64,000 nucleotides of DNA from an uncultured bacterium (GTDB taxonomy: Bacteria; Patescibacteriota; Saccharimonadia; UBA4664; SCTI01): positions 311,367 through 375,366 of the forward strand of contig CAVRJJ010000005.1 in NCBI GenBank assembly GCA_963721685.1, read 5' to 3'. Below, piece after piece: positions 693-17,082 of this stretch. The notes beneath the pieces were generated by a model that worked only from the letters and a program-made list of their open reading frames with translations, made no database searches and was not told where the DNA came from. Both the position numbers and the translations under genes were made by a program. The first letter of the stretch is position 1; every line of letters begins with the position of its first letter.

Positions 693-1171
693 AGATTCTG
701 GGCATTGATCCGGGTACGGCTACCACTGGTTTTGGGGTGATCGAAAAGCAGGGCGGCAAGGTCACTTTTATCGATGCCGGAGTGATTTTGACCCCTGCCG
801 ACCAACCAATGCCGGAGCGCCTTAGCGAAATTTATAACGGCCTGAATGAGCTGCTAGATGAGTATCGGCCTGATTGCATGGCGGTAGAACTGCTGTATTT
901 TGCCTCGAATGTGACTACCGCGATTACGGTTGGCCAAGCCCGGGGTGTGGTATTGCTGGCCGCTGCCGAGCACGCCGTTGCGGTGGCGGAATACACCCCG
1001 CTACAGGTCAAGCAGGCCATTACCGGTTATGGCCGGGCCACAAAAAAGCAGATGCAAGAAATGGTGAAAATGATGCTGGGCTTAAGCGGTATCCCCAAGC
1101 CGGATGACGCGGCTGATGGGTTGGCGATTGCTATTACCCATGCCAACCAGCTAGTTGGTGTGTCGCGATGA
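689..1171 (+). CDS. ruvC: Holliday junction resolvase RuvC
   Basis: The N-terminus MKILGIDPGTATTGFGVIE is the RuvC catalytic Asp motif. The protein is 160 aa and overlaps yebC and ruvA by 4 nt. Confidence 0.9.
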   Translation: MKILGIDPGTATTGFGVIEKQGGKVTFIDAGVILTPADQPMPERLSEIYNGLNELLDEYRPDCMAVELLYFASNVTTAITVGQARGVVLLAAAEHAVAVAEYTPLQVKQAITGYGRATKKQMQEMVKMMLGLSGIPKPDDAADGLAIAITHANQLVGVSR

Positions 1172-1746
1172 TCGCCCATTTGCGCGGAATTGTAATCGAA
1201 AAAACGGTGGGATCGGTAATTATTGAAGCTGGCGGCGTTGGTTATGAGGTGGTACTAGCAGCAGCCGACCATGGGAGGCTAGTGCAAGGTGAGGAGGCAA
1301 GCCTCTATATCTATGAGCAGATTCGGGAGGATGCCCATAACCTTTACGGCTTTAGCGATGTAGCAAGCAAGCATTTTTTCGAACAACTTTTAAGCATAAG
1401 CGGTATTGGGCCGAAGGTGGCTATTAATGTGCTTTCATCGGCGACATTAGATCAACTACAGTCGGCGATTGCCGGCGGGGATCCGGAAATTTTACGTGGT
1501 GTTGCCGGCATTGGCAAGAAAACGGCGGAGCGGATTGTGGTTGAACTTAAAAACAAGATGGACAGCTTGGGTATACTAGCCGGCAGTCAAGCTGGCACGG
1601 CGGTTAGCTCAACCGACACCGCCTACCAAGCGCTGATTGGGTTGGGTTATACTCCCAGCCAAGCGGCTGAGGCGTTGCGGGGTATCCCAGACGATATTGT
1701 GGGGGAGCAAGCCCGCGTAAAGGCGGCCCTCAAGCAACTTTCATAG
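1168..1746 (+). CDS. ruvA: Holliday junction branch migration protein RuvA
   Basis: It starts MIAHLRGIV.. and carries the GIGPKVA helix-hairpin-helix motif. The protein is 192 aa and sits between ruvC and ruvB. Confidence 0.9.
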   Translation: MIAHLRGIVIEKTVGSVIIEAGGVGYEVVLAAADHGRLVQGEEASLYIYEQIREDAHNLYGFSDVASKHFFEQLLSISGIGPKVAINVLSSATLDQLQSAIAGGDPEILRGVAGIGKKTAERIVVELKNKMDSLGILAGSQAGTAVSSTDTAYQALIGLGYTPSQAAEALRGIPDDIVGEQARVKAALKQLS

Positions 1747-1803
1747 GAACCGTTAGTTTCGTATTTTGTTCGCTTATTTCTAAGCACTTGATATAATACC
1801 CCT

Positions 1804-2832
1804 ATGATTGAACGCGTTACCGTTGCCGCCGAACCAACCGAAGATCCCATTGAGCTCCAGCTTGAAGAAACTCTCCGTCCGAAAAGCTTTGAGTCGTATG
1901 TAGGGCAACAGCTGCTAAAAGATACGTTGCAGATGTCGATCCAAGCGGCAGGAGCCCGTAGCGACGCGGTGGACCATATTTTGCTATACGGACCGCCTGG
2001 GCTTGGTAAAACCACTATGGCGGGGGTTATCGCGGCAGAGATGCGAAGTAGCCTGCGCGTTACTTCCGGTCCGGCAATTGAGCGGGCCGGAGACCTGGCC
2101 TCTATCCTGACTAACCTGGCGGATGGGGATATCTTATTTATTGATGAAATTCACCGGCTACCTAAAACAGTGGAAGAGGTTCTCTATCCCGCCATGGAAG
2201 ATTTTGGGATGGATATTATGCTTGGAAAGGGTCCAAGCGCTAAAAGCATGCGGCTGGATCTGCCTAGGTTCACTCTTATTGGCGCTACTACCCGTGTGGG
2301 CGCGTTGGGGGCGCCGTTTCGCGATCGTTTTGGGATGGTGCATCGCCTTGAATACTACACTCCTGAAGAAATGGTGCAGATTTTGCAGCGGTCAGCCCGT
2401 ATTTTAGGCATTAGCCTAGATGCCAAAGCGGCGGAGGAAATCGCGTTACGCTCCCGCTTAACCCCTCGGATTGGCAATCGTTTACTTAAGCGGGTGCGGG
2501 ATTTCGCGGAGGTCAAACATGACGGAAAGGTCAGCGCCGAGGTCGCGCGCCAAGCTCTGGAGATGCTTGAAATTGATGAGTTGGGGCTGGATACGGCCGA
2601 CCGAAAATTGCTGGCGGCCATAATTGATAATTACGGTGGGGGGCCGGTGGGCCTGCAGACATTGGCAGCCTTGTGCTCAGAGGAGCAAACTACCATTGAA
2701 GATGTATACGAACCTTATCTTATGCAAATCGGGATGCTTGATCGAACACCGCGGGGTCGGCGCGTTACCCCAAAAGCCTACCTCCATCTTGGCGTGGAGC
2801 CTCCGACGTCGGCTCAGGGTACTTTAGTGTGA
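1804..2832 (+). CDS. ruvB: Holliday junction branch migration ATPase RuvB
   Basis: Walker [10 protein letters not shown], Walker B DEIHRL, and the typical RuvB length of 342 aa. Confidence 0.95.
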
Positions 2833-2940: not shown

Positions 2941-3243
2941 CTAAAGCGAAAATGGATTCTGCTTCCCGGGCCTAATGGGAATAGTGGTATCACCGGAGGA
3001 GTCCAGTTCCCGCAGTTGCTGAAGGGTATTTGAATAAGCTTTAAAGTTTGGCACCGCCAGGTCATTCTTATGGGTATTTATATAGGCTTGGTCTGGCTGG
3101 GCGCTATTAATTTGGCTAATCCGATAGCCCGTATAGGCGAACAAGCAACCTATAATCAGTAACACGATAAGCCGGTGGTACTGCTTGAACACCGCTAGGA
3201 GCTTGGCTGGGTTGAGGCTTTTAAATGAAATGCTTTGGTTCAT
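2941..3243 (-). CDS. small membrane-anchored protein at the distal end of the pilMNO operon (PilP-position protein, function unknown)
   Basis: A 100-aa ORF with an N-terminal transmembrane segment. It overlaps the pilO-like gene by 4 nt, so it is translationally coupled. Confidence 0.35.
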   Translation of the reverse strand: MNQSISFKSLNPAKLLAVFKQYHRLIVLLIIGCLFAYTGYRISQINSAQPDQAYINTHKNDLAVPNFKAYSNTLQQLRELDSSGDTTIPIRPGKQNPFSL

Positions 3244-3788
3244 GGCTTTATAAACACGTTAAGTACAATGCTGAATCCCAGTAGCCGACTTGATTCCGCA
3301 GGACTGATGCTAAGAGAATTCATGCTGCTGTAGCGGTCAAGTTTTTCCTGGCGCCGCAGAAAGTTTTGCAGTTGCTCGTAGGTTCCTTGTAGCTGAAAGG
3401 TGACTTGAAGGGCAAGCGCGTCACCCACCGGAGTGGTTTGGCTTAACGGGCCAGGCTGGCCGGAGGCGGGAAAGTCAATGTTATCAATGCGCATGTCGCT
3501 GGCAGTAGCGATGTTTTGAAGCTGCAAGGCTACTTTTGACTGGTTTTTCTCGGGGGGCAAAGCTTCATTAATAAGCGGCAAAAACGGCTCAAGCTGCTTA
3601 TATTCTTTCTGTAGCTTTGCCAGGCGCCGTAAGTTGTTATCGGCGGTTTCATTTTGAGCAAGACTTTGGGAGAAGGAGGTGACGCCTGAGGCAAGATACT
3701 GGCTGGTGACATAGTAACCAAAGCCGCCGCCTCCAATTAGAAGCAGCAATAAACCGCAAAGGACATAAAAAAGTCGTTGCGGGCTCAT
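3240..3788 (-). CDS. pilO: type IV pilus assembly protein PilO-like
   Basis: A 182-aa protein with an N-terminal TM helix followed by a coiled-coil-like region. It lies directly after the pilN-like gene with a 4-nt overlap. Confidence 0.55.
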   Translation of the reverse strand: MSPQRLFYVLCGLLLLLIGGGGFGYYVTSQYLASGVTSFSQSLAQNETADNNLRRLAKLQKEYKQLEPFLPLINEALPPEKNQSKVALQLQNIATASDMRIDNIDFPASGQPGPLSQTTPVGDALALQVTFQLQGTYEQLQNFLRRQEKLDRYSSMNSLSISPAESSRLLGFSIVLNVFIKP

Positions 3789-4324
3789 TTGGCGTCTCCC
3801 GGCTTAAAGGCGAAAACCACGACCACCGAATAGTTGTCCTGCTGACGCTTAATGTTCTCAATGTCCGCGGCGCTAATCCGAGGCGAGCGGGCAATACTGT
3901 CGCGGAAGCTAAGGGCGGTTTTGTAGTCAAGCGCGTTGACGGTAAGGCGGACCGGCTGTTTATCGTCTCCGGTTAAGACTATATTTGAGATTGCCGTTCC
4001 TTGGGGCATATATTCAGCCAAATCAGCCAGTAAGACCGAAAATTTCGCCTGATTTTTTTGGATCCCGTTAATCGCTGCCAACCGGCTTCCAGCCGCTTTG
4101 GCTTTTTGCTGAAGATCTTTATATGAGGCGACCTGCTTGTGCTTGACGGTAAGTTCGGCTTCGACCCGTTTGATATCTTCATGTAAGAAGTAGGAAGCGC
4201 CAAGCAAGCTGCCCGCTAATCCGGCCGTTAAAAAGAGGACGAGCCAAAAATAACCAAGTAGCGATCGGTTATAGCGAGAATAAGAAATTTGTTTTTTTAT
4301 TTCGGGTGGAAGGAGGTTGATCAT
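3785..4324 (-). CDS. pilN: type IV pilus assembly protein PilN-like
   Basis: It starts MINLLPPEI.., the typical PilN N-terminus, followed by a TM helix. It overlaps pilM by 4 nt. Confidence 0.65.
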   Translation of the reverse strand: MINLLPPEIKKQISYSRYNRSLLGYFWLVLFLTAGLAGSLLGASYFLHEDIKRVEAELTVKHKQVASYKDLQQKAKAAGSRLAAINGIQKNQAKFSVLLADLAEYMPQGTAISNIVLTGDDKQPVRLTVNALDYKTALSFRDSIARSPRISAADIENIKRQQDNYSVVVVFAFKPGDAK

Positions 4325-5379
4325 AGCAGGCCTCGCAAAGCTAACCCAATGGCTGTCGCGTACATCGGCGTTTCCTGGGGATGGTTTTCTTTCTTAATCT
4401 CAAGGTTTTTCCAGGGGTCTCCAACGGTTAGGGGCAGCCCGACTTGCTCGCTCAAGTATTGGTCTAACCCCGGCATTTGGGCGGTTCCGCCCGAGAGCAC
4501 CAGGGAAGCGACCTTCTTGGTTTCTTCGTGGCGGCTTTCGTAGAATTTTATAACCCGTTTTATTTCTTTCACTAATGTTTGGAGCTGAGGTTCTAGCGCG
4601 GGAAAAACCTTATCGTGCATTCCGCTGGGGGTTAGGCCAAATTTCTCTTTAATTTCATTGGCTTCCGCGACCTTAATCCCCAAGCTTGATACCAGCGCGT
4701 CGGTATAATGTTGCCCTCCCACAGGAACGCTGCCGGTAAGGGGAATAAAGGTGTCGTAAATGGTTAGGTCGGATGATAGGGAGCCAATATCGACTACCAG
4801 CGTACTACCCCCGGCATCCCCAGAGTGTAAGAGGGCCCGGATTACCGCTGCCATTCCCGCCTCCATAGCTCCCACCTCTATACCAAGTTCATCGAATAAC
4901 TTGAGATACGAATCCACGATGGCACGAGGCGCGGCCATCATTAATACATCCATGTGGGGATCATTGCCCGAAGTCGTATTAACTACCTCGTGGTCGATAT
5001 AGAGATCGTTAACGGGGACCGGCACATATTGCTCAACCTCGTAGCTTATGGCCTGTTCTAAGTCACTTCCGTTCATGGGGGGGAGCTCAAGCGTGCGGGT
5101 AAAAAGCTTGGTTGCCGGCAGCCCGGTTACTACTCGGTTAGAAGTGAGTTTTCCATAGGTTAAATTGCGCAACAAAGGTTTTATTACTTTAGCCATAGCA
5201 ACAGGGTCAGCGATGATACCCTCCACCACTGATTCGGGTGGAAAGAACGCGGATCCGTAGCCTTGGACGACCGTTTTGCGGCCGGCTTTGCGTAACTGGA
5301 CTATTTTGACATTGTGGGTACCAATATCAAAACCATACTGTAGCTTGTCTTTATAAATTAGGGGAACGCGCACACTCAC
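4321..5379 (-). CDS. pilM: type IV pilus assembly ATPase-like protein PilM (actin-like fold)
   Basis: A 352-aa protein with actin/FtsA-like motifs (FDIGTHNVKIV, VVDIGSLSSDLTIY). Confidence 0.85.
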   Translation of the reverse strand: MSVRVPLIYKDKLQYGFDIGTHNVKIVQLRKAGRKTVVQGYGSAFFPPESVVEGIIADPVAMAKVIKPLLRNLTYGKLTSNRVVTGLPATKLFTRTLELPPMNGSDLEQAISYEVEQYVPVPVNDLYIDHEVVNTTSGNDPHMDVLMMAAPRAIVDSYLKLFDELGIEVGAMEAGMAAVIRALLHSGDAGGSTLVVDIGSLSSDLTIYDTFIPLTGSVPVGGQHYTDALVSSLGIKVAEANEIKEKFGLTPSGMHDKVFPALEPQLQTLVKEIKRVIKFYESRHEETKKVASLVLSGGTAQMPGLDQYLSEQVGLPLTVGDPWKNLEIKKENHPQETPMYATAIGLALRGLL

Positions 5380-5434
5380 CTCATTAAAGCATTACCATTT
5401 TAATTATAGCAAACCTATCAGTAAGAGACGAGCG

Positions 5435-6859
5435 TCAATTAAACAACCTCTCGTAATAGCGGACATCCCAGCCACTAGGAGTGCTGGACGTGGTGCTGGA
5501 AAATTGAATGTTCCCGTTATTATTAAGCTCAATGGTCTGCCCAATCAGCTGCCCCACGGTGGCATTGTTAGAAAGCCTGAGTTTCGTCCACCGGGAGTAA
5601 AATAGTATGTTGGCCGCTCCGCTGACATTATTGGCTAAATTAATGGTAGTAATATCTTTAGAGTTGGCTAGCGCGGTTCCCGTAACATTACTGCAACCGG
5701 GCCTGCAGCTAGTGTCTGCCGACCAGAATGTATACATATTAAAGCCAATATTATTACTATTGGCGGTAATAAAGCTGTTATTTCCGCTCGTAAAGCCAGT
5801 CGAGCCGTCAATAATTAATTTTACCGGCGCCCCCACGGCGTTACCCGGCTTAAGGGTGTTGTTATTGCCCAGAGTTAAGTTGCCGTCCAGCCAGACATCG
5901 CCGTCTAGGTAAATGGTGCAGTTGTTTGATCCGTTTAAGGTCGTTGTGCTGGCACCCGTGTAGTGACCCGACAGGTGCATTACCCCGCCGCTGCAGGATT
6001 GGGACGCCATAGAGCCCGCATTGGGTATGCCACTGGTTAAGGCGCCGTGATCGGCTGGGGGGAGGTTTATCGGAGGGACGATGTGATCTACGACACCCGT
6101 ATGGGTAAAATTCCCCGGCTTATCCACGTTATTAAGGGGGTGCGTTTCACCATATATATGCGAATTGGTGTCGGTTGTCACACTATTGCCCGAGCTGCAT
6201 GCCAGTGGGTAGGTGCTGTTGGCTGGAGAAGGGCAGGTCATATCGGCAACGTAGGTGTCCACAGGGGTGGCTATACTACCGATTACAGCGTTGTTTCCCA
6301 TAATAAGCTTGCCGCCAACATAAATAGGTCCGGCCGTAATGCGTACGTTATTGCCTAGCACCAGCCCTCCCGGCCCGGCCATGATCGTAAAGTCCGGAGG
6401 AAAAGCCTGATTAATAATCAGCCGAACTTTACGGGTTGAGATTGGTGAGGGAGCGGTTGCCGGAAGATAAACTTTACCCGTAGCGTATACCACTTTCTCG
6501 TTTTGAATAGAACCGTCTGTTACGCAAGATTCATAGGTGATCTTTCCTTGAGTTGAATTATCAACAAGCGTGAGAGGATTTATGGTGTGTCCCGTGCATG
6601 AGTTGCTCGTGCCTGCTGGGGCAGTAGTGGTGCCTTGATAGGCAGTATTAATATTAATATTATTCATAAAGGCATCGGCTCCCGCTTCGGCCGCGTTCAG
6701 CGCACTAGCGTTGGCGAGGGTGCGTCGCGTGCTGGTGTAATGGGACAGGGCAAATTCCGCCACCGCCAAGGAAGTTACGATAAAAAAGGAAGTAAATATC
6801 ATTGCTCCAACTAAAACCACGCCCGATTCCGAATGAAGATGGCGAGCAAATTTTTTCAT
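5435..6859 (-). CDS. PilX-like large pilus-associated minor pilin / tip protein
   Basis: The N-terminus has a hydrophobic segment followed by ..ALNAAEAGADAF.., matching the PilX N-terminal domain pattern. The 474-aa body is Gly/Asn/Thr-rich. It overlaps the upstream minor pilin gene. Confidence 0.55.
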   Translation of the reverse strand: MKKFARHLHSESGVVLVGAMIFTSFFIVTSLAVAEFALSHYTSTRRTLANASALNAAEAGADAFMNNININTAYQGTTTAPAGTSNSCTGHTINPLTLVDNSTQGKITYESCVTDGSIQNEKVVYATGKVYLPATAPSPISTRKVRLIINQAFPPDFTIMAGPGGLVLGNNVRITAGPIYVGGKLIMGNNAVIGSIATPVDTYVADMTCPSPANSTYPLACSSGNSVTTDTNSHIYGETHPLNNVDKPGNFTHTGVVDHIVPPINLPPADHGALTSGIPNAGSMASQSCSGGVMHLSGHYTGASTTTLNGSNNCTIYLDGDVWLDGNLTLGNNNTLKPGNAVGAPVKLIIDGSTGFTSGNNSFITANSNNIGFNMYTFWSADTSCRPGCSNVTGTALANSKDITTINLANNVSGAANILFYSRWTKLRLSNNATVGQLIGQTIELNNNGNIQFSSTTSSTPSGWDVRYYERLFN

Positions 6860-7533
6860 GGCTTATTTCTCAACGTTACTCGTGAATTTAAGCTATTGGA
6901 GTACGCGTGACCAAACTTTGAACGGGTTTGCGAAATAGTGACATCCAGGGAATAAACGTTAGCCACGGTGCTGGTAGAGACATTTTCAGAATCGAAATAA
7001 GATATAACCATGTTTGCAATATCTTCAATTACTTGGCCATCTGGCGGACACGTCGATGTGCCTGGAGGCGGGCAGGTAGAACGGGCGGTATTGCCCGCTA
7101 CGGGATTAGCAATTACGCGGCGGTAAAGAAGATTTTTAGCCCCATCAACATAATAAATAACGTCATTGGTGTGAATACCGCTATGGGACGGATTGACATA
7201 AATCAGGTTGCCGCTACTATCGACTGCCGGAACGGCCAAGACTAGGGTAGACGGCGAGCTGTTGCTTGATGACCATCCATACGGATTGCCACCTGGCCCG
7301 TGTAGATCGGGCCACTGGTTGGTTGTCTCAATCATTCTAGCTGACTGAATATCGCGCCTCAGACTTTCCAGAGCTTGCTTGGTATTGCTCTGAAGAATGG
7401 TTAATGAATCCGTGCGAGCATAATCAACTAGTCTATCAATATAAAATTGGGACACTACCAAGGCCAGTACTCCCATAACTGACATAGTTATCAAGAGCTC
7501 TAATAAGGTAAGCCCGCGCTGATCTTTTTTCAT
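6856..7533 (-). CDS. prepilin-type minor pilin (PilW-like)
   Basis: MKKDQRGLTLLELLITMSVMGVLALV is a class III signal with the G|LTLLE cleavage/methylation motif. Confidence 0.6.
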   Translation of the reverse strand: MKKDQRGLTLLELLITMSVMGVLALVVSQFYIDRLVDYARTDSLTILQSNTKQALESLRRDIQSARMIETTNQWPDLHGPGGNPYGWSSSNSSPSTLVLAVPAVDSSGNLIYVNPSHSGIHTNDVIYYVDGAKNLLYRRVIANPVAGNTARSTCPPPGTSTCPPDGQVIEDIANMVISYFDSENVSTSTVANVYSLDVTISQTRSKFGHAYSNSLNSRVTLRNKP

Positions 7534-7982
7534 CGGTTGATACCGCGTTGAGCCATATAGGTTGAAACCTGAACCTTTTTTGTTTTCTTGTCATCGGTGT
7601 AGGAAATCATAACATCAACTTGCTTTAATCCGGCTTGCGGCGATGATATGTTGGCTACGGCCGACTTAGGCGAGCCAAGGCTAGCGGGCAAGGAGGCGGT
7701 AAAGGTTTCCGCCGGCGTACCCAGGGGGAGTGCATTAAAGCCCGCATCTCGATAAATTTCAAGTTTTTTTTCAGCTAGGGCGGTTGCGACTGCCAGGTTG
7801 CGCGCTTGTTTGTTTAACTTTCCGGTAAAAATAAATATATTAATAATGGCAACTAAGGTTATGCTGATGAAAACAGCGGTTACTACTAGCTCAACCAGCG
7901 TAAAACCATCACTCGACTTTAAGTTTTTTACAACGTCTTTAGGCATTAGCTTTATTATAGCGTAAGCGGTTTTTTTGATCAT
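7530..7982 (-). CDS. prepilin-type minor pilin (PilV-like)
   Basis: ..SSDGFTLVELVVTAVFISITLVAII is a prepilin N-terminal motif (G|FTLVE). The protein is 150 aa. Confidence 0.6.
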   Translation of the reverse strand: MIKKTAYAIIKLMPKDVVKNLKSSDGFTLVELVVTAVFISITLVAIINIFIFTGKLNKQARNLAVATALAEKKLEIYRDAGFNALPLGTPAETFTASLPASLGSPKSAVANISSPQAGLKQVDVMISYTDDKKTKKVQVSTYMAQRGINR

Positions 7983-7995
7983 GATTGTCTCGTAT

Positions 7996-8031
7996 TAAAA
8001 AGCCGCTGCCGTTACCGGTCAGCGGCTTTTT
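7996..8031. terminator. Rho-independent terminator hairpin between the major pilin and minor pilin genes
   Basis: AAAAAGCCGCTG-(11 nt loop)-CAGCGGCTTTTT is a 7-bp GC stem flanked by an A-run and a T-run. It is symmetric and could act on either strand. Confidence 0.6.
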
Positions 8032-8050
8032 AGCTAGGTTAGACTATTAG

Positions 8051-8512
8051 TTAATTTGCTGAGTTGAGTGTGTAGACACCAGCTGTAGCCTGGCTGTCCT
8101 TGGCATTTTCAAGCGTAGCCCTGAGCGTATAGCTTATACAAGCGCCATCACCACAACCCGTTGGGGAGGTTTCGTATGTGTAGTTCTGACCACCTTTAGG
8201 GTCGTTAGGCACAGACTTGGCGTAAGGCGTGCCTCCTGACGTGAGAACCGTGCCCAAACAGCCAGCTACACTTGGTGTACACGTTGTAGCGCCCGCGGTG
8301 GGATAGCTGTTGTTATCGTTGTAGTACAACTCAAGCGCTGTTTGAATCTTGTGGAGATCACCCTTACGCTGTGAGTCGCGCGCGCGTTGCGGACCGCTAA
8401 TTAAGTTCGGGATGATTAGTACGGCTAGAATACCAATGATCACGATAACGATCAAAAGCTCAAGTAGCGTAAAACCACCTTGTTTCTTTAATAATTTCAT
8501 GTGAGTGCTCAC
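8051..8512 (-). CDS. pilA: type IV major pilin (PilA-like)
   Basis: ..KKQGG|FTLLELLIVIVIIGILAVLIIP is a canonical type IVa prepilin leader followed by the F/E+5 hydrophobic helix. The protein is 153 aa with C-terminal Cys residues. An AGGAGG RBS and a downstream terminator are present. Confidence 0.8.
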   Translation of the reverse strand: MSTHMKLLKKQGGFTLLELLIVIVIIGILAVLIIPNLISGPQRARDSQRKGDLHKIQTALELYYNDNNSYPTAGATTCTPSVAGCLGTVLTSGGTPYAKSVPNDPKGGQNYTYETSPTGCGDGACISYTLRATLENAKDSQATAGVYTLNSAN

Positions 8513-8568: not shown

Positions 8569-8599
8569 ATTGTAAAATTTTTATGTTGTGCGTGTCAAG
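8569..8599 (-). promoter_or_regulatory. putative sigma70-type promoter for the major pilin gene
   Basis: On the minus strand there is a TTGACA -35 box, then an 18-19 nt spacer, then TACAAT. The spacer length is non-ideal. Confidence 0.3.
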
Positions 8600-8618
8600 G
8601 ATTTTTGCATTAGACAGC

Positions 8619-9839
8619 TTAAATGGCTTGATTCAATGACGCCAGCGGCCCGAACACTCCAATGACGATAAACCCGACAATACCCCCCAATGAGACGATG
8701 AGAATTGGCTCAATTACCGAGGTGATTCCGGCAACCACCGTGTCTACCTCACGTTCATAGAAGCTTGCCAATTTGAGTAAAATTTCATCAAGTTTTCCGG
8801 TTTCCTCACCAACCGCAACCATTTGGCCGACGATAGGAGGAAAGGCAGCGAGCGCGTTAAGCGGCTCGGCTATCGGTTTACCGGCCTTAACCTGCCTGGC
8901 AACTTCGTGCAAGCCATTGCGAAAAACCGTATTGTTTAAACCGTCGGCACTGGTATTAAGCGCTTCGAGCACCGAGAGCCCTGAAGCCATCAGCGAGCCA
9001 AAAGTTCGCGCAAACCGGGCGACATTGACCTTAATGATGATTGGCCCAAGTATGGGCAATCGAATAAGCAGTTTATCAATCATGGCTTTGCCGCGGGCGG
9101 TGCGCTTAAAACGAAACGCAACTATGCCCAGCACTACAAGCCCAGCGAGTATAAAAATCCCATAGTTTACCAGGCCGCTGCTAATAGCCAGCATGAGCTT
9201 GCTATACCATGGCAGTTCTGCCCCCATGCTTTCAAAAATTACCGACATCCGGGGCACTAAATAAGTCATAAGAAAAACAAACGAACCCAATGTAACCGTA
9301 AGTAATATCCCGGGATAAATCATGGCGCTGCGAACCTTGGCAACTACCGCGGCGTCTTTTTCCTGCTGGACGGCCAAGCGCTCAAGTACTCCGTCAAGCA
9401 TGCCTCCAGCTTCACCAGCTTTAATCATATTGATGTATACTGCGGAAAAAACATCCGTGTGTGCCGCCAGCGCGTCGCTTAGGGTTGAGCCGCCTTCAAC
9501 TTGTTTTGTAATATCAGAGATAACTGATTGAAAATGCTTATTAGCGGTTTGGCCGCTTAGCATAGTAAGTGATTGGGTTAACGGAACACCGGCGTTGATC
9601 ATGGTGGCAAACTGCCGCGAGAATATTACCTTCTCCTCAAGTTTTACGCGGCCGCCAAACTTAAATTTCCCTAAACTTAGGCCTTTACCGCCGGCCTTGG
9701 CAAATTCGATTTTAATGAGTATTGGCACCAACTCCCGATCGAGGAGGCTTGCCGCCGCCGCGGCTTGGTCGTTGGCAACTAAACTGCCTTTTTGAATGGT
9801 CCCACTATGATCGCGCGCGGTATAGGTAAAAGTTGCCAT
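8619..9839 (-). CDS. pilC: type IV pilus assembly platform protein PilC (GspF family)
   Basis: A polytopic membrane protein with duplicated GspF domains. The start is reassigned to the internal MATFTYTARDHSG, the typical PilC N-terminus, at 9839. The listed longer ORF 8619..9980 would overlap pilB. Confidence 0.85.
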   Translation of the reverse strand: MATFTYTARDHSGTIQKGSLVANDQAAAAASLLDRELVPILIKIEFAKAGGKGLSLGKFKFGGRVKLEEKVIFSRQFATMINAGVPLTQSLTMLSGQTANKHFQSVISDITKQVEGGSTLSDALAAHTDVFSAVYINMIKAGEAGGMLDGVLERLAVQQEKDAAVVAKVRSAMIYPGILLTVTLGSFVFLMTYLVPRMSVIFESMGAELPWYSKLMLAISSGLVNYGIFILAGLVVLGIVAFRFKRTARGKAMIDKLLIRLPILGPIIIKVNVARFARTFGSLMASGLSVLEALNTSADGLNNTVFRNGLHEVARQVKAGKPIAEPLNALAAFPPIVGQMVAVGEETGKLDEILLKLASFYEREVDTVVAGITSVIEPILIVSLGGIVGFIVIGVFGPLASLNQAI

Positions 9840-9840
9840 C

Positions 9841-11796
9841 CTACTCTCTGGTAACCCGTAAAATCTCTTCGATGGTGGTAAGGCCACGCAGAGATTTGAG
9901 AAAACCGTCTTGCTGCATGGTGAGCATGCCGGATTGGATGGCCTGCTTTTGAATGTCTTCGCTTGTAGCATGGCTGACAATCATTTGCTGAATTTGCGTA
10001 TTCACTTCCAAAACCTCATAAATACCAAGCCGTCCCAGGTAACCGTTGCCGCCGCACTGGTCGCAGCCGTCACTGGCCTTATAGAGAGTGAACTGTCCGT
10101 TTTTTAGCGCCTTAAGCTCGGGGCCGGAAACAAGCTCGGCCGCCGCCGGTGGCGGCTCTTCGGCTATGGGATCCAGCTCCGCAGCCTTTTGTTTCAATAA
10201 TTTGGCATCTTCGGAACTGCGTTCGATGATATTTGGGTCGGAAGCAATTTTATCCAGTATTGATTTGGATTGTCCGATTGGATGCAGGGGCCGCAGCTCT
10301 TTTTTTGCAGGGGGCTTGACTTCTTCCGTCTTGACAGCGATCGCTTTCTGGATATATTTCACAGCACTGACCGTTTCAAAATCCCGGTTTATATCAGCCA
10401 ACACCTGCCCTTCAGGAACGTAGGCGACACGGCATGACGAGCATAGACGGCGCACCAACCGCTGGCCAATGACCGTATTAACGGTTGAAGCAATCAGGAA
10501 GGGCTCAATTTGCATATCGAGCAAGCGCGGCAGGGTGGTGGCGGCATTGTTAGTGTGAAGGGTTGAAAGTACTACATGCCCGGTCAGTGCCGCCTGTACG
10601 GCTAAGTCGGCGGTTTCTCCGTCCCGTACCTCGCCTACCATAATGACATTTGGGTCCTGCCGCAAAAGCGCGCGTAAGCCGCCTGCAAAGGTCATTCCAG
10701 CTTTTGGGTTGACTTGGGTTTGATTGACTCCGGGCACCCGGTACTCCACCGGGTCTTCAACGGTAGAAATATTGATGCCTGGTGTGTTGAGCATGCTGAG
10801 TACGCTGTAGAGAGTAGTAGATTTTCCTGACCCGGTGGGGCCGGTTACTAAAACCATGCCGTGCGGTTTACGAATGCCGCGCTCAATCCGGCCCAGCGCC
10901 TCACCTTCAAATCCTAGTTCCTCGAGCGTTAAGGCACGTACCCCCTCGTCCAAAATACGCATGACGACTTTTTCCCCATCCATAATTGGTAAGGTAGAAA
11001 CCCGCAGGGCCACCGTTTTGGAACCAACGGCAAATTTGAAGCGCCCATCCTGCGGTATTCGGTGTTCATCAATTTTAAGATTAGCTAAAATTTTAATACG
11101 GGATACCACCGCGGCCATAATATTTTTTGGCAATGTCATGGTTTCCCTTAGGACCCCGTCAATTCGAAACCGGACTTGCACCAAGTTTTCGCGCGGTTCG
11201 AGGTGAATATCGGAGGCCCTGGCTTTAACCGCGTACTCCAAGACAATATTCACCGTCTTGGCGATAGGCGCGTCTTCCGCTAAGTCTTTGGCGCTAACTT
11301 CCTGCTGCTTTTCTACTTCATCAGCGCTGCTGTCTTTTATAGCTTTGGTGATTTCACTCGAAATATTGCCTTTGTATTGGTCGATGGCGCTAAGAATATC
11401 GCTGGCCGAGGCAACATAAATGGTAATATCCTGTCCAATTTGCTTGGCAATAAAATCAGCGGCCTGGAAATCTTCAGGGTCGGCCATTGCCAGCTGTAAG
11501 GTAGTGCCATCTTGCCCAAATAAGACAGCTTGGTACTTGCGGGCAATGCGTTCAGGGATTTTGGTGAGAATGTCGTGAGAAATCGCGACATCACGCAAGT
11601 CAACATAGGGGATGTCGACGCTTTTGGCGTAAAGCTTGAGCAAATTTTGCTCGGTAATAAGCTTGCGTTTGAGCACAGTCTGCAGCAAAGGCTCACCGGT
11701 TTGTTCGTGAGCCTCTTCGGCAGCTTGCAGTATCTCCGGCTTAACCTTCTTACTGGCAAGCAGGAGATTTTTTAACTCGGAATCAGATACACGCAT
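9841..11796 (-). CDS. pilB: type IV pilus assembly ATPase PilB (GspE family)
   Basis: An N-terminal T2SSE_N-like domain, Walker A GPTGSGKSTT, a CxxC..CxxC tetracysteine and a length of 651 aa. Confidence 0.9.
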   Translation of the reverse strand: MRVSDSELKNLLLASKKVKPEILQAAEEAHEQTGEPLLQTVLKRKLITEQNLLKLYAKSVDIPYVDLRDVAISHDILTKIPERIARKYQAVLFGQDGTTLQLAMADPEDFQAADFIAKQIGQDITIYVASASDILSAIDQYKGNISSEITKAIKDSSADEVEKQQEVSAKDLAEDAPIAKTVNIVLEYAVKARASDIHLEPRENLVQVRFRIDGVLRETMTLPKNIMAAVVSRIKILANLKIDEHRIPQDGRFKFAVGSKTVALRVSTLPIMDGEKVVMRILDEGVRALTLEELGFEGEALGRIERGIRKPHGMVLVTGPTGSGKSTTLYSVLSMLNTPGINISTVEDPVEYRVPGVNQTQVNPKAGMTFAGGLRALLRQDPNVIMVGEVRDGETADLAVQAALTGHVVLSTLHTNNAATTLPRLLDMQIEPFLIASTVNTVIGQRLVRRLCSSCRVAYVPEGQVLADINRDFETVSAVKYIQKAIAVKTEEVKPPAKKELRPLHPIGQSKSILDKIASDPNIIERSSEDAKLLKQKAAELDPIAEEPPPAAAELVSGPELKALKNGQFTLYKASDGCDQCGGNGYLGRLGIYEVLEVNTQIQQMIVSHATSEDIQKQAIQSGMLTMQQDGFLKSLRGLTTIEEILRVTRE

Positions 11797-11934
11797 AACA
11801 GGTACATTGTAGCATAAGCGGGATTAAACAGCTGTCAAAGTTTAATCAATAATAAACAGCGCTATAAGAACAATTTAATAGGCTTTTGTCAGACTGGAAG
11901 TATATTACAAACAACCTAAGCGGAGATATACTTA

Positions 11935-13335
11935 ATGCAGAACTTCATCCGTATTGCTTTGGCGCTGGCCTTGTTACCACTAATGGCATCACCTTCCCGG
12001 GCCAGCGCGAATATATTGAAACATCCTTTAATCAGCGAGATTCAGACCGGTACAGCTTTAAGCGCAAGCCAGGAATTTGTTGAGCTTTATAACCCCTCCG
12101 ATTCAGACATCCCTTTATCTGGATGGACTATCGAGTATAAGGCGGCCACCTCGACAAATACTGAGACGAGCTGGAGCAAGAAAGCCGCGCTATCAGGCTC
12201 GATTGCAGCGCAGGGCTTCTATCTTGTAGCTCAAAAAACCTATATTGCCGCGGCAGACGCGGAATGGTCGCCCACCCTGGCATCAAGCGCTGGCCACATT
12301 CGTTTGAAAGATGCTGACGGTATAGTAATTGACCTACTTGGGTATGGTGAAACGAGCAACGGCGCCCGAGGCGCGCCAGCCGCGTCCCCGGCTACCGGCG
12401 CTAGTATTGAACGGCTACCCGGACGGCTTGAGCCGCAATCAGGAAATGGGGTAGATTCAGATAATAACGCTGCTGACTTTATCGTACGGACCGTCCCGGA
12501 GCCACAAGCTACCACCTCTGCCATAGAAGTTCCGGGCGAAGTGCCGGCCGCACCGGAAGCGGATGAGATTGCCGAGGAAGCAGCCGCACCAACGACGTAC
12601 GCCCCTATAAGCATCTCAGAAGCATTAGTTGACCCCCAAACACCGTTAACTGACGCTGAGGATGAATTTATTGAACTTTATAACCCAACCAGTGAGTCAG
12701 TTGACTTGCAGGATTACACGCTCCGAAGCGGCAGTAATTTTAGGGATTACTACAAGATTCCAGGCCTGGTCATTCCAGCCCAAGGCTACACCGTTTTGTA
12801 TGCGCGGGAAACGAAGCTTGGGTTAACAAATGGTGGTGGAGCAGTCCAGCTGGTTGATCCCAGTGGCGAGGTAATCGACCAAACACCCGACTACCCAGCG
12901 GCATTGGCGGGACAATCCTGGGCGGCATTTCCAGAAGGATGGCAATGGACACTTCAGTTAACGCCTGGCCAAGCGAATGTGCTTGCCGCGTTGCCGGTAT
13001 CGGTAGCCACGACCGCTAAACCCAAAGCCACCATCAAAAAAGCAGCTGCAAAGGCTGCGCCCAAAGCTAAAAAAGCAGCTGCACCCAAAGTAGCTAAGCC
13101 TAAAAAACCAAGGAAGGCCAAAATTGTTCCCACATCGTTAGCCGCCTTGCCAATGGCTGCTTCACGGAACCTGCAACCCTCTACCTGGTTGATTATCACA
13201 CTAGCAATCCTTACTATAGGGTATGCTCTCTATGAATTCCGCTACGACATTTATTATCTCTACCGCAAGCTCCGAGGAGACAGTCCAGCTCGGGCGAATG
13301 GCCGGCTTGGCTCTGAAGGGCGGAGACGTGATTGA
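11935..13335 (+). CDS. secreted/membrane-anchored lamin-tail-domain (LTD) protein with Lys/Ala/Pro-rich histone-H1-like tail
   Basis: A signal peptide is followed by two LTD-like repeats (ISEIQTG..EFVELYNPS and ISEALVD..EFIELYNPT). Then come a KKAAAKAAPKAKKAAAPKVAKPKKPRKAK segment and a C-terminal TM helix. Confidence 0.6.
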   Translation: MQNFIRIALALALLPLMASPSRASANILKHPLISEIQTGTALSASQEFVELYNPSDSDIPLSGWTIEYKAATSTNTETSWSKKAALSGSIAAQGFYLVAQKTYIAAADAEWSPTLASSAGHIRLKDADGIVIDLLGYGETSNGARGAPAASPATGASIERLPGRLEPQSGNGVDSDNNAADFIVRTVPEPQATTSAIEVPGEVPAAPEADEIAEEAAAPTTYAPISISEALVDPQTPLTDAEDEFIELYNPTSESVDLQDYTLRSGSNFRDYYKIPGLVIPAQGYTVLYARETKLGLTNGGGAVQLVDPSGEVIDQTPDYPAALAGQSWAAFPEGWQWTLQLTPGQANVLAALPVSVATTAKPKATIKKAAAKAAPKAKKAAAPKVAKPKKPRKAKIVPTSLAALPMAASRNLQPSTWLIITLAILTIGYALYEFRYDIYYLYRKLRGDSPARANGRLGSEGRRRD

Positions 13336-13723
13336 GCTGAAGGGGGATATTGGCAGCGGAAAAACAACTCTTACAACCGGCATAGCCGCGGGATTAGGCT
13401 TTGAGGGTGACGTACCGAGTCCGACATTTACTTTAAGCCGCACCTATCCTTTAAAAGGTAAGTTAAGCCTACACCATTATGACTTCTACCGTCTCAACGG
13501 ACATGACAGCGTAACTGAAGAGTTAGCCGAGACCCTTAAAGACCCCTTTGCTATAACTGTTATTGAATGGCCCGGCCAAGGAAATGCTAATCTTCCGAAT
13601 CCCCGGCTGCGCATAACGATTAACCGCCTAGCAGACGAAAACCTTCGCGAAATTACATTGGAAAGCCTTAGCGGGGGCGGTGCAGAAGTAATGAGAAAGA
13701 TTGCTTATGATTATCGCTCTTAA
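13223..13723 (+). CDS. tsaE: tRNA threonylcarbamoyladenosine biosynthesis protein TsaE
   Basis: The P-loop GDIGSGKTTL is preceded by the TsaE-type N-terminal segment. The exact start is uncertain, and the ORF overlaps the 3' end of the LTD gene in another frame. Confidence 0.75.
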   Translation: MLSMNSATTFIISTASSEETVQLGRMAGLALKGGDVIELKGDIGSGKTTLTTGIAAGLGFEGDVPSPTFTLSRTYPLKGKLSLHHYDFYRLNGHDSVTEELAETLKDPFAITVIEWPGQGNANLPNPRLRITINRLADENLREITLESLSGGGAEVMRKIAYDYRS

Positions 13724-14102
13724 CACCGCTACCAACACTACAACGCTGGCTTTACATGATGTAAAGGGAAAAGCGGCTGCACAGGATGTTTGGGAATCCG
13801 GGCGCCAGCTTTCCAGCCAACTCCTAAACCATATTGAAGTATTATTACATGCCTACCAGGTGACATGGAGTGATCTCAGCGGCATTATTATCTACAGGGG
13901 CCCAGGTTCATTTACCGGGTTGCGTATTGGCGCAACGGTAGCCAATGCCATCGCATATGCCCAAGCCATTCCTATAGTTGGTGAAATTGGCGAAGCCTGG
14001 GTGGATAACGGTTTAAAGCGCTTGGCGGCTGGCGAAAGCGATGGCCAGGTTGTCCCTCATTATGGCGCCCCAGCCAACATTACCAAACCACGGGGCGCTT
14101 GA
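13701..14102 (+). CDS. tsaB: tRNA threonylcarbamoyladenosine biosynthesis protein TsaB (short form)
   Basis: MIIALNTAT..IIYRGPGSFTGLRIGATVANAIAYAQAIPIVG is a TsaB/YeaZ N-terminal domain. The protein is only 133 aa. Confidence 0.75.
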   Translation: MLMIIALNTATNTTTLALHDVKGKAAAQDVWESGRQLSSQLLNHIEVLLHAYQVTWSDLSGIIIYRGPGSFTGLRIGATVANAIAYAQAIPIVGEIGEAWVDNGLKRLAAGESDGQVVPHYGAPANITKPRGA

Positions 14103-14258
14103 CGGGCTTTTGACGGAGAGGTTTAATGTACTTACTGCTTAATAATAGAACGTGCTGATACCTAGCAGACACCCCTGCACGCTGATACCTGATCTCACAA
14201 GTTAGTTTTGTTCAGTGCTGTTTAAAGTGCCTGCATTTTCAGCGCCTGAGGAGGCGTT

Positions 14259-15776: not shown

Positions 15777-15780
15777 TACT

Positions 15781-16572: not shown

Positions 16573-16695
16573 TTCTACTTGCGCAATTGGCAATTATCAC
16601 TAAAAAATGCCTGATTTATAGTGGTTTTTCAGCTTGGTGAAGGGGAAAACATTTGCTAGACTAATACTCAAGGATAAGTGAGGATTCAAGGTACC

Positions 16696-17005: not shown

Positions 17006-17082
17006 CGGGGTGTGGCGCAGTTGGCTAGCGCGCCTGCTTTGGGAGCAGGAGGTCGAAGGTTCGAGTCCTTTCACCCCGACCA
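17006..17082 (+). tRNA. tRNA-Pro (anticodon UGG)
   Basis: A manual cloverleaf was folded: acceptor CGGGGTG/CACCCCG, D arm GCGC/GCGC, anticodon stem CCTGC/GCAGG with loop TTTGGGA, T arm GAAGG-TTCGAGT-CCTTT, and an encoded CCA. Confidence 0.8.

What the first reader, a model, noticed from the sequence alone, without database searches (positions are those of the whole stretch)
11935..13335. Surface protein with tandem lamin-tail domains and a histone-H1-like lysine-rich tail next to the pilus locus
A signal peptide, two LTD-like modules (each with the ..EF(V/I)ELYNP(S/T).. strand) and a KKAAAKAAPKAKKAAAPKVAKPKKPRKAK segment followed by one TM helix. Bacterial LTDs often occur in extracellular nucleases and DNA-binding surface proteins. 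An AKP-rich tail is a strong non-specific DNA binder. The gene is divergently transcribed from pilB at the head of a type IV pilus locus. A membrane-anchored extracellular DNA-binding protein here could act as a DNA receptor for pilus-mediated uptake or as a matrix/eDNA anchor.
Basis: partly seen in the sequence, partly recalled or inferred. Interest (0 to 1): 0.5.

Follow-up and report, generated by a model that had tools for sequence, protein, structure and literature searches.

The report
Membrane-anchored LTD protein, lysine-rich stalk
A conserved but unstudied surface protein of Saccharibacteria-type ultrasmall bacteria carries two lamin-tail domains on a lysine-rich stalk, is always encoded among pilus, recombination and DNA-uptake genes, and is a candidate for the DNA receptor these naturally transformable bacteria seem to lack.

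Summary
ORF 11935-13335(+) encodes 466 aa:
- a signal peptide
- two confident lamin-tail (LTD) beta-sandwiches
- a disordered Lys/Ala/Pro stalk (net +16)
- one TM helix
- an Arg-rich cytoplasmic tail

The topology puts the stalk outside the cell. The gene is divergent from pilB of a PilT-less type IV pilus locus, and its 3' end overlaps tsaE.

The protein belongs to a large Patescibacteria family defined by 2xLTD, a variable stalk and a near-invariant TM/juxtamembrane motif (GYAxYE[FY]RxD).

Gene context points to pili and DNA uptake:
- 37/37 related loci with enough flank have pilus genes nearby.
- In a sister clade with Cys/Arg-repeat stalks, the gene sits directly downstream of comEC.
- More distant relatives carry OB folds in place of the stalk.

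The published Southlakia annotation lists no ComEA, although that organism is naturally competent.

Evidence against a pure DNA-receptor role:
- The LTDs are acidic.
- About 9% of family stalks are uncharged.
- In published Tn-seq the Southlakia LTD gene (same gene context, sequence not compared) is depleted like neighbouring pilMNO, while comEC is neutral.
- The homologous pilus in TM7x is not needed for competence.

Verdict: an uncharacterised, pilus- and competence-linked surface protein. A ComEA-like DNA or polyanion receptor is the best-supported reading (about 0.4). A wall-spanning pilus or adhesion accessory is a serious rival.

The parts
11797..11934 (.). 138-bp divergent intergenic region between pilB and the LTD gene
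   Evidence: Promoter-like hexamers occur on both strands (weak consensus matches only). GGAG lies about 10 nt before the ATG.
11935..13335 (+). LTD-stalk-TM protein gene, 466 aa plus stop codon
   Evidence: ORF list. A 100% identical database protein, P0001, comes from a 466-kb contig.
11935..12009 (+). Sec signal peptide, aa 1-25, probable SPase I site ASA|N
   Evidence: Sequence rules. AF2 predicts a helix at aa 2-18. An N-terminal hydrophobic segment is present in almost all family members.
12022..12534 (+). LTD1 beta-sandwich, aa 30-200, net charge -10
   Evidence: Pfam LTD. Partial match to the ExeM N-terminus, NF033680 positions 10-103, E=2e-5. AF2 pLDDT is mostly >90. Charge.
12535..12597 (+). 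Acidic Pro/Glu/Ala linker, aa 201-221, net -6
   Evidence: pLDDT about 60. Charge.
12598..12984 (+). LTD2 beta-sandwich, aa 222-350, net -12
12985..13182 (+). Disordered polycationic stalk, aa 351-416, net +16; Lys/Ala/Pro core aa 361-396 (nt 13015-13122)
   Evidence: pLDDT is below about 55. Composition. Family-wide stalk composition is A 25%, K 20%, T 12.5%, S 9.5%, P 9%, with median charge +13. About 80% of 244 members have a stalk charge of +7 or more.
13183..13236 (+). Single C-terminal transmembrane helix, aa 417-434
   Evidence: AF2 helix with pLDDT about 94. Hydrophobicity scan.
13222..13272 (+). Family signature GYAxYE[FY]RxD (invariant Y430 and R436; Y433, E434, D438 at 90% or more) plus juxtamembrane helix aa 436-446
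   Evidence: Alignment A1. A profile of this module finds 721 representatives, always at the C-terminus, and of the 143 newly retrieved hits inspected nearly all full-length ones are LTD proteins. The motif is unique in the window.
13237..13332 (+). Arg-rich cytoplasmic tail, aa 435-466, net +5
   Evidence: Poorly conserved beyond the helix. This coding region overlaps tsaE.
13223..13723 (+). tsaE, overlapping the LTD gene 3' end by 38-113 nt in another reading frame
   Evidence: Pfam TsaE E=5e-31. The TsaE P-loop begins just after the LTD stop codon. tsaE is the next downstream gene in 43/51 family loci.
13701..14102 (+). tsaB
   Evidence: Pfam TsaD-family domain.
9841..11796 (-). pilB (T4P assembly ATPase), divergent neighbour
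   Evidence: T2SSE E=1.1e-131 and MshEN.
8619..9839 (-). pilC (platform protein); probable start is M48 of the listed ORF
   Evidence: T2SSF E=5e-56. Start inferred from the pilB stop position.
3240..8512 (-). Major pilin (8051-8512), three minor pilin-like genes (7530-7982, 6856-7533, 5435-6859), pilM (4321-5379), pilN (3785-4324), pilO (3240-3788)
   Evidence: Pfam N_methyl, T2SSG, PilM_2, PilN and PilO. No pilT or second pilB is present in the window.
78..2832 (+). yebC (cut by the window start), ruvC, ruvA, ruvB: the recombination arm of the conserved supercluster
   Evidence: Pfam. In relatives with longer flanks, comEC lies just upstream of yebC.

Best explanation
The gene encodes a type I (N-out, C-in) single-pass surface protein of a Saccharimonadia (Patescibacteria/CPR) bacterium.

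**Proposed steps**
- After Sec export and signal-peptide cleavage, two acidic LTD beta-sandwiches are held away from the membrane by a disordered Lys/Ala/Pro stalk of about 65 residues (net +16).
- The stalk lies at the outer face of the membrane, within the wall zone.
- A near-invariant TM/juxtamembrane motif (GYAxYE[FY]RxD plus a short cytoplasmic helix) docks the protein to a membrane partner.
- Most likely function: the stalk captures DNA, or another polyanion, at the membrane surface in cooperation with the type IV pilus/ComEC neighbourhood. This would make it a non-homologous functional analogue of ComEA (or of H. pylori ComH) in a lineage that lacks ComEA.
- It probably has an additional pilus- or envelope-related role that makes it important for epibiotic growth.

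**Shown here:** the architecture, the topology logic, the family conservation and the gene neighbourhoods.

**Inferred:** DNA binding, the partner docking and the hand-off to ComEC.
For: **Architecture**
- The domain architecture and the extracellular position of the stalk are established.
- The stalk has a histone-H1-tail-like composition with no acidic residue.
- Positive charge is kept in 117/126 members of the window's clade and in about 80% of 244 members overall.

**Relatives with other stalks**
- P0119 has the same gene position (ruvA-ruvB-queH-x-queA-[LTD protein]-tsaE-tsaB). It carries two OB folds (tRNA_anti-codon E=5.7e-12, BOF E=7.7e-7) where the stalk would be.
- P0120 (LTD plus OB fold) lies inside a pilM...pilB-response regulator-pilC-SLT/LysM operon.

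**Gene neighbourhood**
- In the Cys-repeat sister clade, comEC is the immediate upstream co-directional neighbour in L050, L087, L073 and L076.
- comEC is one gene away (yebC between) in L083 and in Southlakia.
- All 37 window-type loci with at least 5 kb of upstream flank have T4P genes nearby.
- recA-recX or pilB is the usual upstream neighbour.
- Fourteen LTD proteins outside this family have none of these neighbours.

**Family signature**
- The TM module is specific to this family: 721 representatives, always C-terminal.

**Published data**
- The naturally competent Southlakia has no ComEA by KEGG, Pfam or name.
- ComEA was found in only 31% of CPR genomes, and an alternative DNA-binding mechanism was suggested (PMC6744442).
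- LTD1 resembles the LTD of the extracellular nuclease ExeM (PMC6085458).
Against: **No direct test**
- No DNA-binding assay exists for any member of the family.

**Charge and stalk variability**
- The LTDs and linker are strongly acidic (-10, -6, -12).
- About 9% of family stalks are neutral and Ser/Thr/Gly-rich.
- The Cys-repeat clade has a median stalk charge of only +4.
- The conserved feature may therefore be a spacer rather than a polycation.

**Genetics in cultured relatives**
- Southlakia Tn-seq: LTD insertions fall from 451 to 104 to 13 normalised reads. pilM, pilN and pilO of the adjacent locus behave similarly. comEC stays near 12,000.
- In TM7x, deletion of pilB2 from the synteny-equivalent PilT-less locus leaves competence at wild-type level.

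**Limits of the synteny argument**
- Gene order in these reduced genomes is conserved over many unrelated genes (tsaE, tsaB, rny, ymdB, HU), so part of the association may be historical.
- comEC is not in the 64-kb window.
Confidence: 0.4

Rival explanations
1. It is a pilus- or envelope-accessory protein or adhesin with no role in DNA handling. In this reading:
- The stalk is a wall-spanning spacer. Its lysines associate with anionic wall polymers.
- The LTDs bind wall or host glycans, or pilus components.
- The TM motif docks to the PilMNO/PilC platform of the PilT-less (T4P-2-like) pilus, which mediates host binding.
For: - T4P genes lie within 10 kb in 37/37 loci.
- The gene lies directly upstream of pilin-pilMNO in P0105 and inside a T4P operon, next to an SLT/LysM transglycosylase, in P0120.
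- Tn-seq depletion kinetics match pilM/N/O of the adjacent locus, not comEC.
- In TM7x, T4P-2 promotes host binding and is not needed for competence.
- Stalk composition drifts between K/A-rich, neutral S/T/G-rich and Cys-repeat forms, as expected for a spacer.
Against: - This reading does not explain the direct comEC adjacency in the sister clade.
- It does not explain the OB folds in relatives at the same gene position.
- 80% retention of a charge of +7 or more is much more than a neutral spacer needs.
- In several genomes pilB and pilC are gone from the neighbourhood while the LTD gene stays (L018-L027).
- The beta-sandwich matches are generic.
Confidence: 0.3
2. It is a generic conserved surface protein, and its gene neighbourhood is only inherited synteny. 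The LTD-tsaE-tsaB arrangement is an old operon, and the nearby pilus and recombination genes are bystanders in slowly rearranging reduced genomes.
For: - The tightest linkage is to tsaE: it is the next gene in 43/51 loci, with overlapping reading frames. This holds even in the distant P0119. No functional link to t6A synthesis is apparent.
- rny, ymdB and HU are conserved alongside as well.
Against: - When the gene leaves tsaE, it lands next to comEC/yebC/ruvC (L050, L073, L076, L083, L087, Southlakia) or next to pilin-pilMNO (P0105), not at random places.
- P0081 keeps the gene between the two halves of a split T4P locus.
- Only L038, of the loci with long flanks, shows none of these neighbours.
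Confidence: 0.15
3. It is an extracellular DNA or RNA tether for nutrition or matrix formation, not for transformation. It would hold nucleic acid at the surface for nucleases and nucleoside uptake, independently of ComEC.
For: - Saccharibacteria lack nucleotide synthesis, yet comEC is dispensable for growth (PMC10633639). Another route for acquiring nucleotides must therefore exist.
- The Southlakia LTD gene is fitness-critical.
- The SP-LTD(-OB) architecture is that of the ExeM/Xds nucleases minus the nuclease domain.
Against: - No nuclease domain is present in the protein, and none lies next to it in the window.
- The stalk is membrane-proximal, under the cell's own wall, which is a poor position for a matrix anchor.
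- This reading rests on the same untested DNA binding as the main explanation.
Confidence: 0.1

Closest known systems
ComEA, the membrane-anchored DNA receptor of competence systems (and H. pylori ComH as a precedent for non-homologous replacement; my own knowledge, not checked here)
   Same: - Single-pass membrane anchor with a candidate DNA-binding element at the outer face of the membrane.
- Encoded next to comEC in part of the family.
- Present in a competent lineage that has no annotated ComEA.
   Different: - No helix-hairpin-helix domain.
- The anchor is C-terminal rather than N-terminal.
- The candidate DNA binder is a disordered polycation.
- There are two extra LTD domains.
- Mutants of the Southlakia LTD gene lose fitness, whereas comEC mutants do not.
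ExeM / Xds extracellular nucleases (signal peptide, LTD, OB fold, EEP nuclease)
   Same: - Signal peptide followed by an LTD. NF033680 matches positions 10-103, E=2e-5.
- Distant relatives also have the OB fold.
- LTD deletion lowers ExeM activity (PMC6085458).
   Different: - No EEP nuclease domain.
- No OB fold in the window protein.
- No GlyGly-CTERM sorting signal.
- The whole-protein score of 22.8 bits is far below the 1300-bit cut-off.
Lamin tail domain (PF00932), the Ig fold of nuclear lamins
   Same: - Two domains above the Pfam threshold.
- Foldseek probability 1.0 to lamin A/C, B1 and B2.
   Different: - 13-22% sequence identity.
- Extracellular and acidic.
Lys/Ala/Pro-rich tails: histone H1 C-terminal domain, mycobacterial HBHA and Hlp/MDP1 (my own knowledge)
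   Same: Composition (K 39%, A 36%, P 14% in the core), predicted disorder, and no acidic residues.
   Different: - The similarity is compositional only. There is no homology to the linker-histone globular domain and no Pfam hit.
- The HBHA tail binds sulfated glycans rather than DNA, so composition alone does not identify the ligand.
SEML1_0775 of Ca. Southlakia epibionticum ML1, annotated 'lamin tail domain-containing protein' in the Wang et al. 2023 Tn-seq
   Same: - Two LTDs.
- It is the only LTD protein in that genome.
- It is flagged as a Patescibacteria-enriched core family.
- It lies in the same comEC-yebC-ruv-T4P-recA supercluster.
- L083, which has the same gene context, carries the family TM motif.
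   Different: - 630 aa.
- The stalk is a Cys-rich 'TNF receptor-like' repeat region instead of the Lys-rich stalk.
- It is not next to tsaE.

Membership tests
Lamin tail domain (Pfam PF00932) | HMM score above the gathering threshold | tested here: met
   112.1 bits against 34.3, E=2.2e-32, two stretches.
Lamin tail domain (Pfam PF00932) | Ig-like beta-sandwich fold matching the lamin tail | tested here: met
ComEA competence DNA receptor | Helix-hairpin-helix DNA-binding domain (HHH_3, PF12836) | tested here: not met
   No HhH hit in Pfam or NCBIfam at E up to 1.
ComEA competence DNA receptor | Membrane-anchored with the binding element outside the cell | tested here: met
   A signal peptide and a single C-terminal TM place the stalk outside. 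This is sequence logic, not an experiment.
ComEA competence DNA receptor | Genomic linkage to comEC | tested here: inconclusive
   comEC is not in this window. It is directly adjacent in 4 sister-clade loci, one gene away in L083 and Southlakia, and 6-7 kb upstream in 6 window-type loci.
ComEA competence DNA receptor | Binds dsDNA and is required for transformation | not testable with these tools
   Requires EMSA and a non-polar mutant.
ExeM/Xds extracellular nuclease (NF033680) | EEP nuclease domain and OB fold | tested here: not met
   Only the N-terminal SP+LTD part matches (22.8 bits against a 1300-bit cut-off). No PF03372 or PF01336 hit.
ExeM/Xds extracellular nuclease (NF033680) | GlyGly-CTERM sorting signal | tested here: not met
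   The C-terminus is a TM helix plus a 32-aa tail with the YEFRxD motif.
Sortase-anchored (LPXTG) wall protein | LPXTG-type motif, then a hydrophobic segment and a short basic tail at the extreme C-terminus | tested here: not met
   There is no LPXTG. The residues before the TM (NLQPST) vary across the family. The tail is 17-63 aa and contains a conserved helix.
General C-terminal sorting signal shared by many cargo proteins | The same C-terminal module is attached to unrelated ectodomains | tested here: not met
   The profile search gave 721 hits. Of the 143 newly retrieved listed hits inspected, nearly all full-length ones carry LTD motifs. There is only one copy in the window.
Histone H1-like / Hc1-like basic DNA-binding tails | Lys/Ala/Pro-rich, disordered, highly basic segment | tested here: met
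   14 K, 13 A and 5 P in 36 residues, net +15, pLDDT below 55. This is composition only, not homology.
2xLTD-stalk-TM family of Patescibacteria (defined here) | Signal peptide, two LTDs, a low-complexity or repeat stalk, and a C-terminal TM with GYAxYE[FY]RxD | tested here: met
   Alignment A1 has 84 sequences, with Y430 and R436 invariant and Y433, E434 and D438 at 90% or more. There are about 115 full-length homologues at 26-63% identity.

The most novel reading that the evidence does not exclude
The 2xLTD-stalk-TM family is the missing extracellular DNA receptor of ComEA-less, naturally competent Patescibacteria. In this reading:
- It is a non-homologous replacement of ComEA.
- Its interchangeable stalk (polylysine, Cys/Arg hairpin repeats or OB folds) binds incoming DNA at the membrane.
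- Its invariant TM/juxtamembrane motif couples it to the pilus platform and to ComEC.
Probability: 0.3. Interest if true: 0.75.

Novelty: new variant of a known kind. Interest (0 to 1): 0.55.

Why it matters
Patescibacteria make up a large share of bacterial diversity. They cannot make nucleotides, and their cultured members are naturally transformable. How DNA is bound outside the cell is unknown, because ComEA is missing from most of them (PMC6744442).

This family is flagged as a Patescibacteria-enriched core family. It is fitness-critical in the only genome-wide screen available, and it is unmentioned in the text of that study.

It is encoded next to comEC or the pilus genes throughout the group. 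Southlakia and TM7x are genetically tractable, so the hypothesis can be tested directly there.

If the rival reading is right, the protein would instead be a new accessory component of the pili that mediate host attachment. That would also be useful to know.

Tried and rejected
**Explanations tested and rejected**
- **Sortase or other sorting signal.** Rejected: there is no LPXTG, the tail is long, and the C-terminal module is restricted to LTD proteins.
- **Nuclease.** Rejected: no catalytic domain.
- **DNA tandem repeat as the origin of the K-rich segment.** None found.
- **Second paralogue next to comEC in window-type genomes.** None found, so the K-type and Cys-type genes look like one gene in alternative positions.

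**Searches that found nothing**
- **Sequence relatives with solved structures.** None at E up to 0.01.
- **Exact-sequence lookup of the window protein's own contig.** Not on record.
- **Foldseek against AFDB50.** The library was unavailable.
- **comEC, recA, recX, pilT or a second pilB in the window.** None found.
- **Literature on 'lamin tail domain' with Saccharibacteria, Patescibacteria, type IV pili or competence.** Nothing relevant.

**Left open**
- **A Pfam model for the Cys/Arg repeat of the sister clade.** None exists.
- **A functional reading of the tsaE linkage.** Considered, but no plausible mechanism was found, so it remains unexplained.
Full report
**1. Observation**

The ORF at 11935-13335 (+) is real: ATG start, 466 aa, with a GGAG about 10 nt upstream.
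- Pfam finds the lamin tail domain twice (PF00932, E=2.2e-32, 112 bits against a 34.3-bit threshold).
- Both quoted strands are present, as is the quoted Lys/Ala/Pro segment. The core at aa 361-396 holds 14 K, 13 A, 5 P and no acidic residue, net +15.
- No other reading frame in the window holds such a segment or the C-terminal motif. The segment is not a DNA tandem repeat.
- The divergent neighbour is pilB (T2SSE, E=1e-131). It heads pilC, a major pilin, three minor pilin-like genes, and pilM, pilN and pilO.
- Downstream on the same strand, with no terminator-like site in between, lie tsaE, tsaB, rny, ymdB and HU.
- Upstream of the pilus locus lie yebC, ruvC, ruvA and ruvB.
- Homologue names place the organism in Saccharimonadia/Patescibacteria.

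**2. Anatomy and topology**

An AlphaFold2 model built on 84 homologues has mean pLDDT 84. It shows:
- two beta-sandwiches (aa 30-200 and 222-350, mostly pLDDT >90)
- a low-confidence acidic linker
- a disordered stalk (about aa 355-413)
- a TM helix (aa 417-434)
- a short helix (aa 436-446)

The N-terminus is a standard Sec signal peptide with an ASA|N site after residue 25. The only other hydrophobic segment follows the stalk, so the LTDs and the stalk must be outside and the Arg-rich tail inside. This is sequence logic, not an experiment.

The charge pattern is striking:

| Segment | Net charge |
|---|---|
| LTD1 | -10 |
| Linker | -6 |
| LTD2 | -12 |
| Stalk | +16 |
| Tail | +5 |

**3. Family**

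- About 115 full-length proteins of 430-520 aa share the architecture at 26-63% identity.
- Besides generic LTD residues, the alignment shows invariant Y430 and R436, and Y433, E434 and D438 conserved at 90% or more. These lie at the cytoplasmic end of the TM helix and form the motif GYAxYE[FY]RxD.
- A profile of this C-terminal module, searched against 1.84 billion representatives, finds 721 proteins at E up to 1e-3. The match is always at the C-terminus. Of the 143 newly retrieved listed hits inspected, nearly all full-length ones carry LTD motifs. The module is therefore a family signature, not a general sorting signal.
- Stalk charge in the window's clade (YEFR motif) is +7 or more in 117/126 members, median +14.
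- Stalk charge in the YEYR clade is +7 or more in 77/117 members and +3 or less in 25/117. The low-charge stalks are Ser/Thr/Gly-rich.
- A large sister clade (2014 proteins at E up to 1e-10) replaces the stalk with 3-6 copies of a Cys/Arg repeat, consensus PCxEGQERNPETNRCR. Its median net charge is +4.
- More distant Patescibacteria proteins carry OB folds between the LTDs and a C-terminal TM helix (P0119: tRNA_anti-codon E=5.7e-12, BOF E=7.7e-7).

**4. Gene neighbourhood**

I analysed 87 loci from public genomes.
- The usual order is pilB(-), often recA-recX, then the LTD gene, tsaE, tsaB, rny, ymdB and HU.
- All 37 window-type loci with at least 5 kb of upstream flank have a pilus gene in the flank.
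- tsaE is the next downstream gene in 43/51 loci.
- The immediate upstream neighbour is recX in 26 loci, pilB in 11 and a pilin in 7.

The rearranged cases are the informative ones:
- In P0081 the LTD-tsaE-tsaB unit sits between the two halves of a split pilus locus.
- In P0105 the gene is separated from tsaE and directly precedes pilin-pilM-pilN-pilO. comEC-yebC-ruvCAB and recA-recX lie upstream.
- In the Cys-repeat clade, comEC is the immediate upstream co-directional neighbour in L050, L087, L073 and L076 (gaps of 66 to about 370 nt).
- The order is comEC-yebC-LTD-ruvC in L083.
- P0119 keeps ruvA-ruvB-queH-x-queA-[LTD/OB]-tsaE-tsaB.
- P0120 (LTD plus OB) lies in a pilM...pilB-response regulator-pilC-SLT/LysM operon.

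Two controls:
- Window-type loci that reach comEC (6-7 kb upstream) have no second LTD gene there. The two stalk types therefore look like one gene in alternative positions.
- Fourteen LTD proteins outside the family have none of these neighbours.

One family locus with long flanks, L038, also has none of these neighbours. Its neighbour is a class A penicillin-binding protein.

**5. Published experiments**

- Méheust et al. found ComEA in only 31% of CPR genomes and suggested an alternative DNA-binding mechanism (PMC6744442).
- Wang et al. showed that Saccharibacteria are naturally competent, and that comEC is needed for transformation but not for fitness (PMC10633639).
- Their annotation tables for Southlakia list no ComEA by KEGG number, Pfam accession or name.
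- Their Table S1 lists a single 'lamin tail domain-containing protein', SEML1_0775.
  - It lies between yebC and ruvC, next to comEC.
  - It is flagged as a Patescibacteria-enriched core family.
  - Its calls are NE/ES/ES.
- Normalised Tn-seq reads at T0, T1 and T2:

| Gene | T0 | T1 | T2 |
|---|---|---|---|
| SEML1_0775 (LTD) | 451 | 104 | 13 |
| pilM (adjacent locus) | 576 | 137 | 33 |
| pilN | 328 | 74 | 13 |
| pilO-like | 412 | 103 | 7 |
| comEC | 12,586 | 11,147 | 12,301 |

- The gene is not discussed in the paper's text.
- A polar effect on the essential downstream transglycosylase SEML1_0773 cannot be excluded.
- I infer that SEML1_0775 belongs to the Cys-repeat clade from three things. 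It has two LTDs, it has a 'TNF receptor-like' Cys-rich region after them, and its gene context is identical to L083. I did not have its sequence.
- Grossman et al. describe TM7x T4P locus two as PilC2, PilB2, PilM2, PilN2 and PilO2, the RecAX operon and one essential pilin, without PilT. Deleting pilB2 removes the thin pili and slows host binding but leaves competence unchanged (PMC11623550).
- The window's pilus locus also lacks pilT and occupies the same position. By synteny it is T4P-2-like.

**6. Interpretation**

Four lines of evidence point to nucleic-acid handling at the cell surface:
- the association with comEC, recA-recX, ruvCAB and pilus genes, which persists through rearrangement
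- the OB folds in relatives at the same gene position
- the resemblance of the SP-LTD part to the ExeM/Xds nucleases
- the absence of ComEA from a competent relative

The window protein's stalk is the only plausible binding element, because the LTDs are acidic. I therefore favour a ComEA-like membrane-proximal DNA or polyanion receptor, docked to a membrane partner through the invariant TM motif (confidence 0.4).

The counter-evidence is substantial:
- Stalk charge is relaxed in parts of the family.
- The one available phenotype tracks pilMNO rather than comEC.
- The neighbouring pilus type is not the competence pilus in TM7x.

This supports a rival reading in which the protein is a wall-spanning accessory or adhesin of the host-binding pilus (0.3). 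Two weaker rivals remain:
- pure inherited synteny, anchored on the unexplained tsaE linkage (0.15)
- a nutritional extracellular-DNA tether (0.1)

The two leading readings are not mutually exclusive.

**7. Comparison with known systems**

- The protein is a true LTD-domain protein.
- It is not a ComEA homologue (no HhH domain).
- It is not an ExeM/Xds nuclease (no EEP domain, OB fold or GlyGly-CTERM).
- It is not a sortase substrate.
- Its similarity to histone H1 tails is compositional only. The similar tail of mycobacterial HBHA binds sulfated glycans (my own knowledge), so composition does not identify the ligand.

**8. Verdict**

- The family is uncharacterised in the searchable literature.
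- It is best described as a new variant of a known kind: a membrane-anchored extracellular receptor linked to competence and pilus systems, built from non-homologous parts.
- Interest is moderate to good, because it turns an open question about DNA uptake in Patescibacteria into a direct experiment in two tractable strains.

Noticed in passing
window 13223-13335: The LTD gene and tsaE overlap in different reading frames by 38-113 nt. The TsaE P-loop begins just after the LTD stop codon, so the first 25-40 residues of TsaE are encoded inside the region that codes for the LTD protein's conserved motif and tail. The overlap recurs in relatives, including the distant P0119 (43 nt). No functional link between a surface protein and t6A synthesis is apparent.
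   Followed up: partly
L083 4398-6047; also L050, L038, L087, L073, and P0264-P0383: The sister clade replaces the Lys-rich stalk with 3-6 tandem Cys/Arg repeats, consensus PCxEGQERNPETNRCR. No Pfam model matches the repeat. DPAM in the Southlakia study called the region 'TNF receptor-like'. The clade is large: 2014 proteins at E up to 1e-10.
   Followed up: partly
L050 7003-7755 and L087 446-1174: A GmrSD_C restriction-endonuclease-domain gene lies immediately upstream of comEC-LTD in two sister-clade loci.
   Followed up: no
L089 (P0120 locus) 8585-16760: In a Parcubacteria T4P operon, the LTD/OB gene is flanked by an SLT/LysM transglycosylase, an 882-aa ORF with no Pfam hit, a stand-alone metallo-beta-lactamase-fold gene and a pilin. 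This is notable because CPR ComEC lacks its usual MBL nuclease domain (PMC6744442).
   Followed up: no
window 36067-45458: A block of five consecutive plus-strand ORFs (390, 357, 324, 1286 and 646 aa) has no credible Pfam match. GC falls to 0.38-0.43 at 42-46 kb, against about 0.50 elsewhere. It may be an island or a set of lineage-specific surface proteins.
   Followed up: no
window 9841-11796: In PilB, the T2SSE profile (370 positions) spans 476 residues. This implies an insertion of about 100 aa, which is charged and Pro/Ala-rich and lies ahead of the Cys-containing motif near the C-terminus.
   Followed up: no
window 23324-26561, 54731-56662, 60839-62470: Three GH13 alpha-amylase paralogues and a GH15 glucoamylase-type gene lie within one 64-kb window of a reduced genome.
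   Followed up: no
window 17006-18058: A tRNA cluster (Pro-TGG, Gly-TCC, Arg-TCT, His-GTG) is interrupted by a small methyltransferase gene on the opposite strand (17191-17739).
   Followed up: no
L018-L027 and L057: In several relatives, pilB and pilC are absent from the neighbourhood. Only pilM and a pilin remain between ruvB and the LTD gene, so the LTD gene outlasts the adjacent pilus motor genes.
   Followed up: partly
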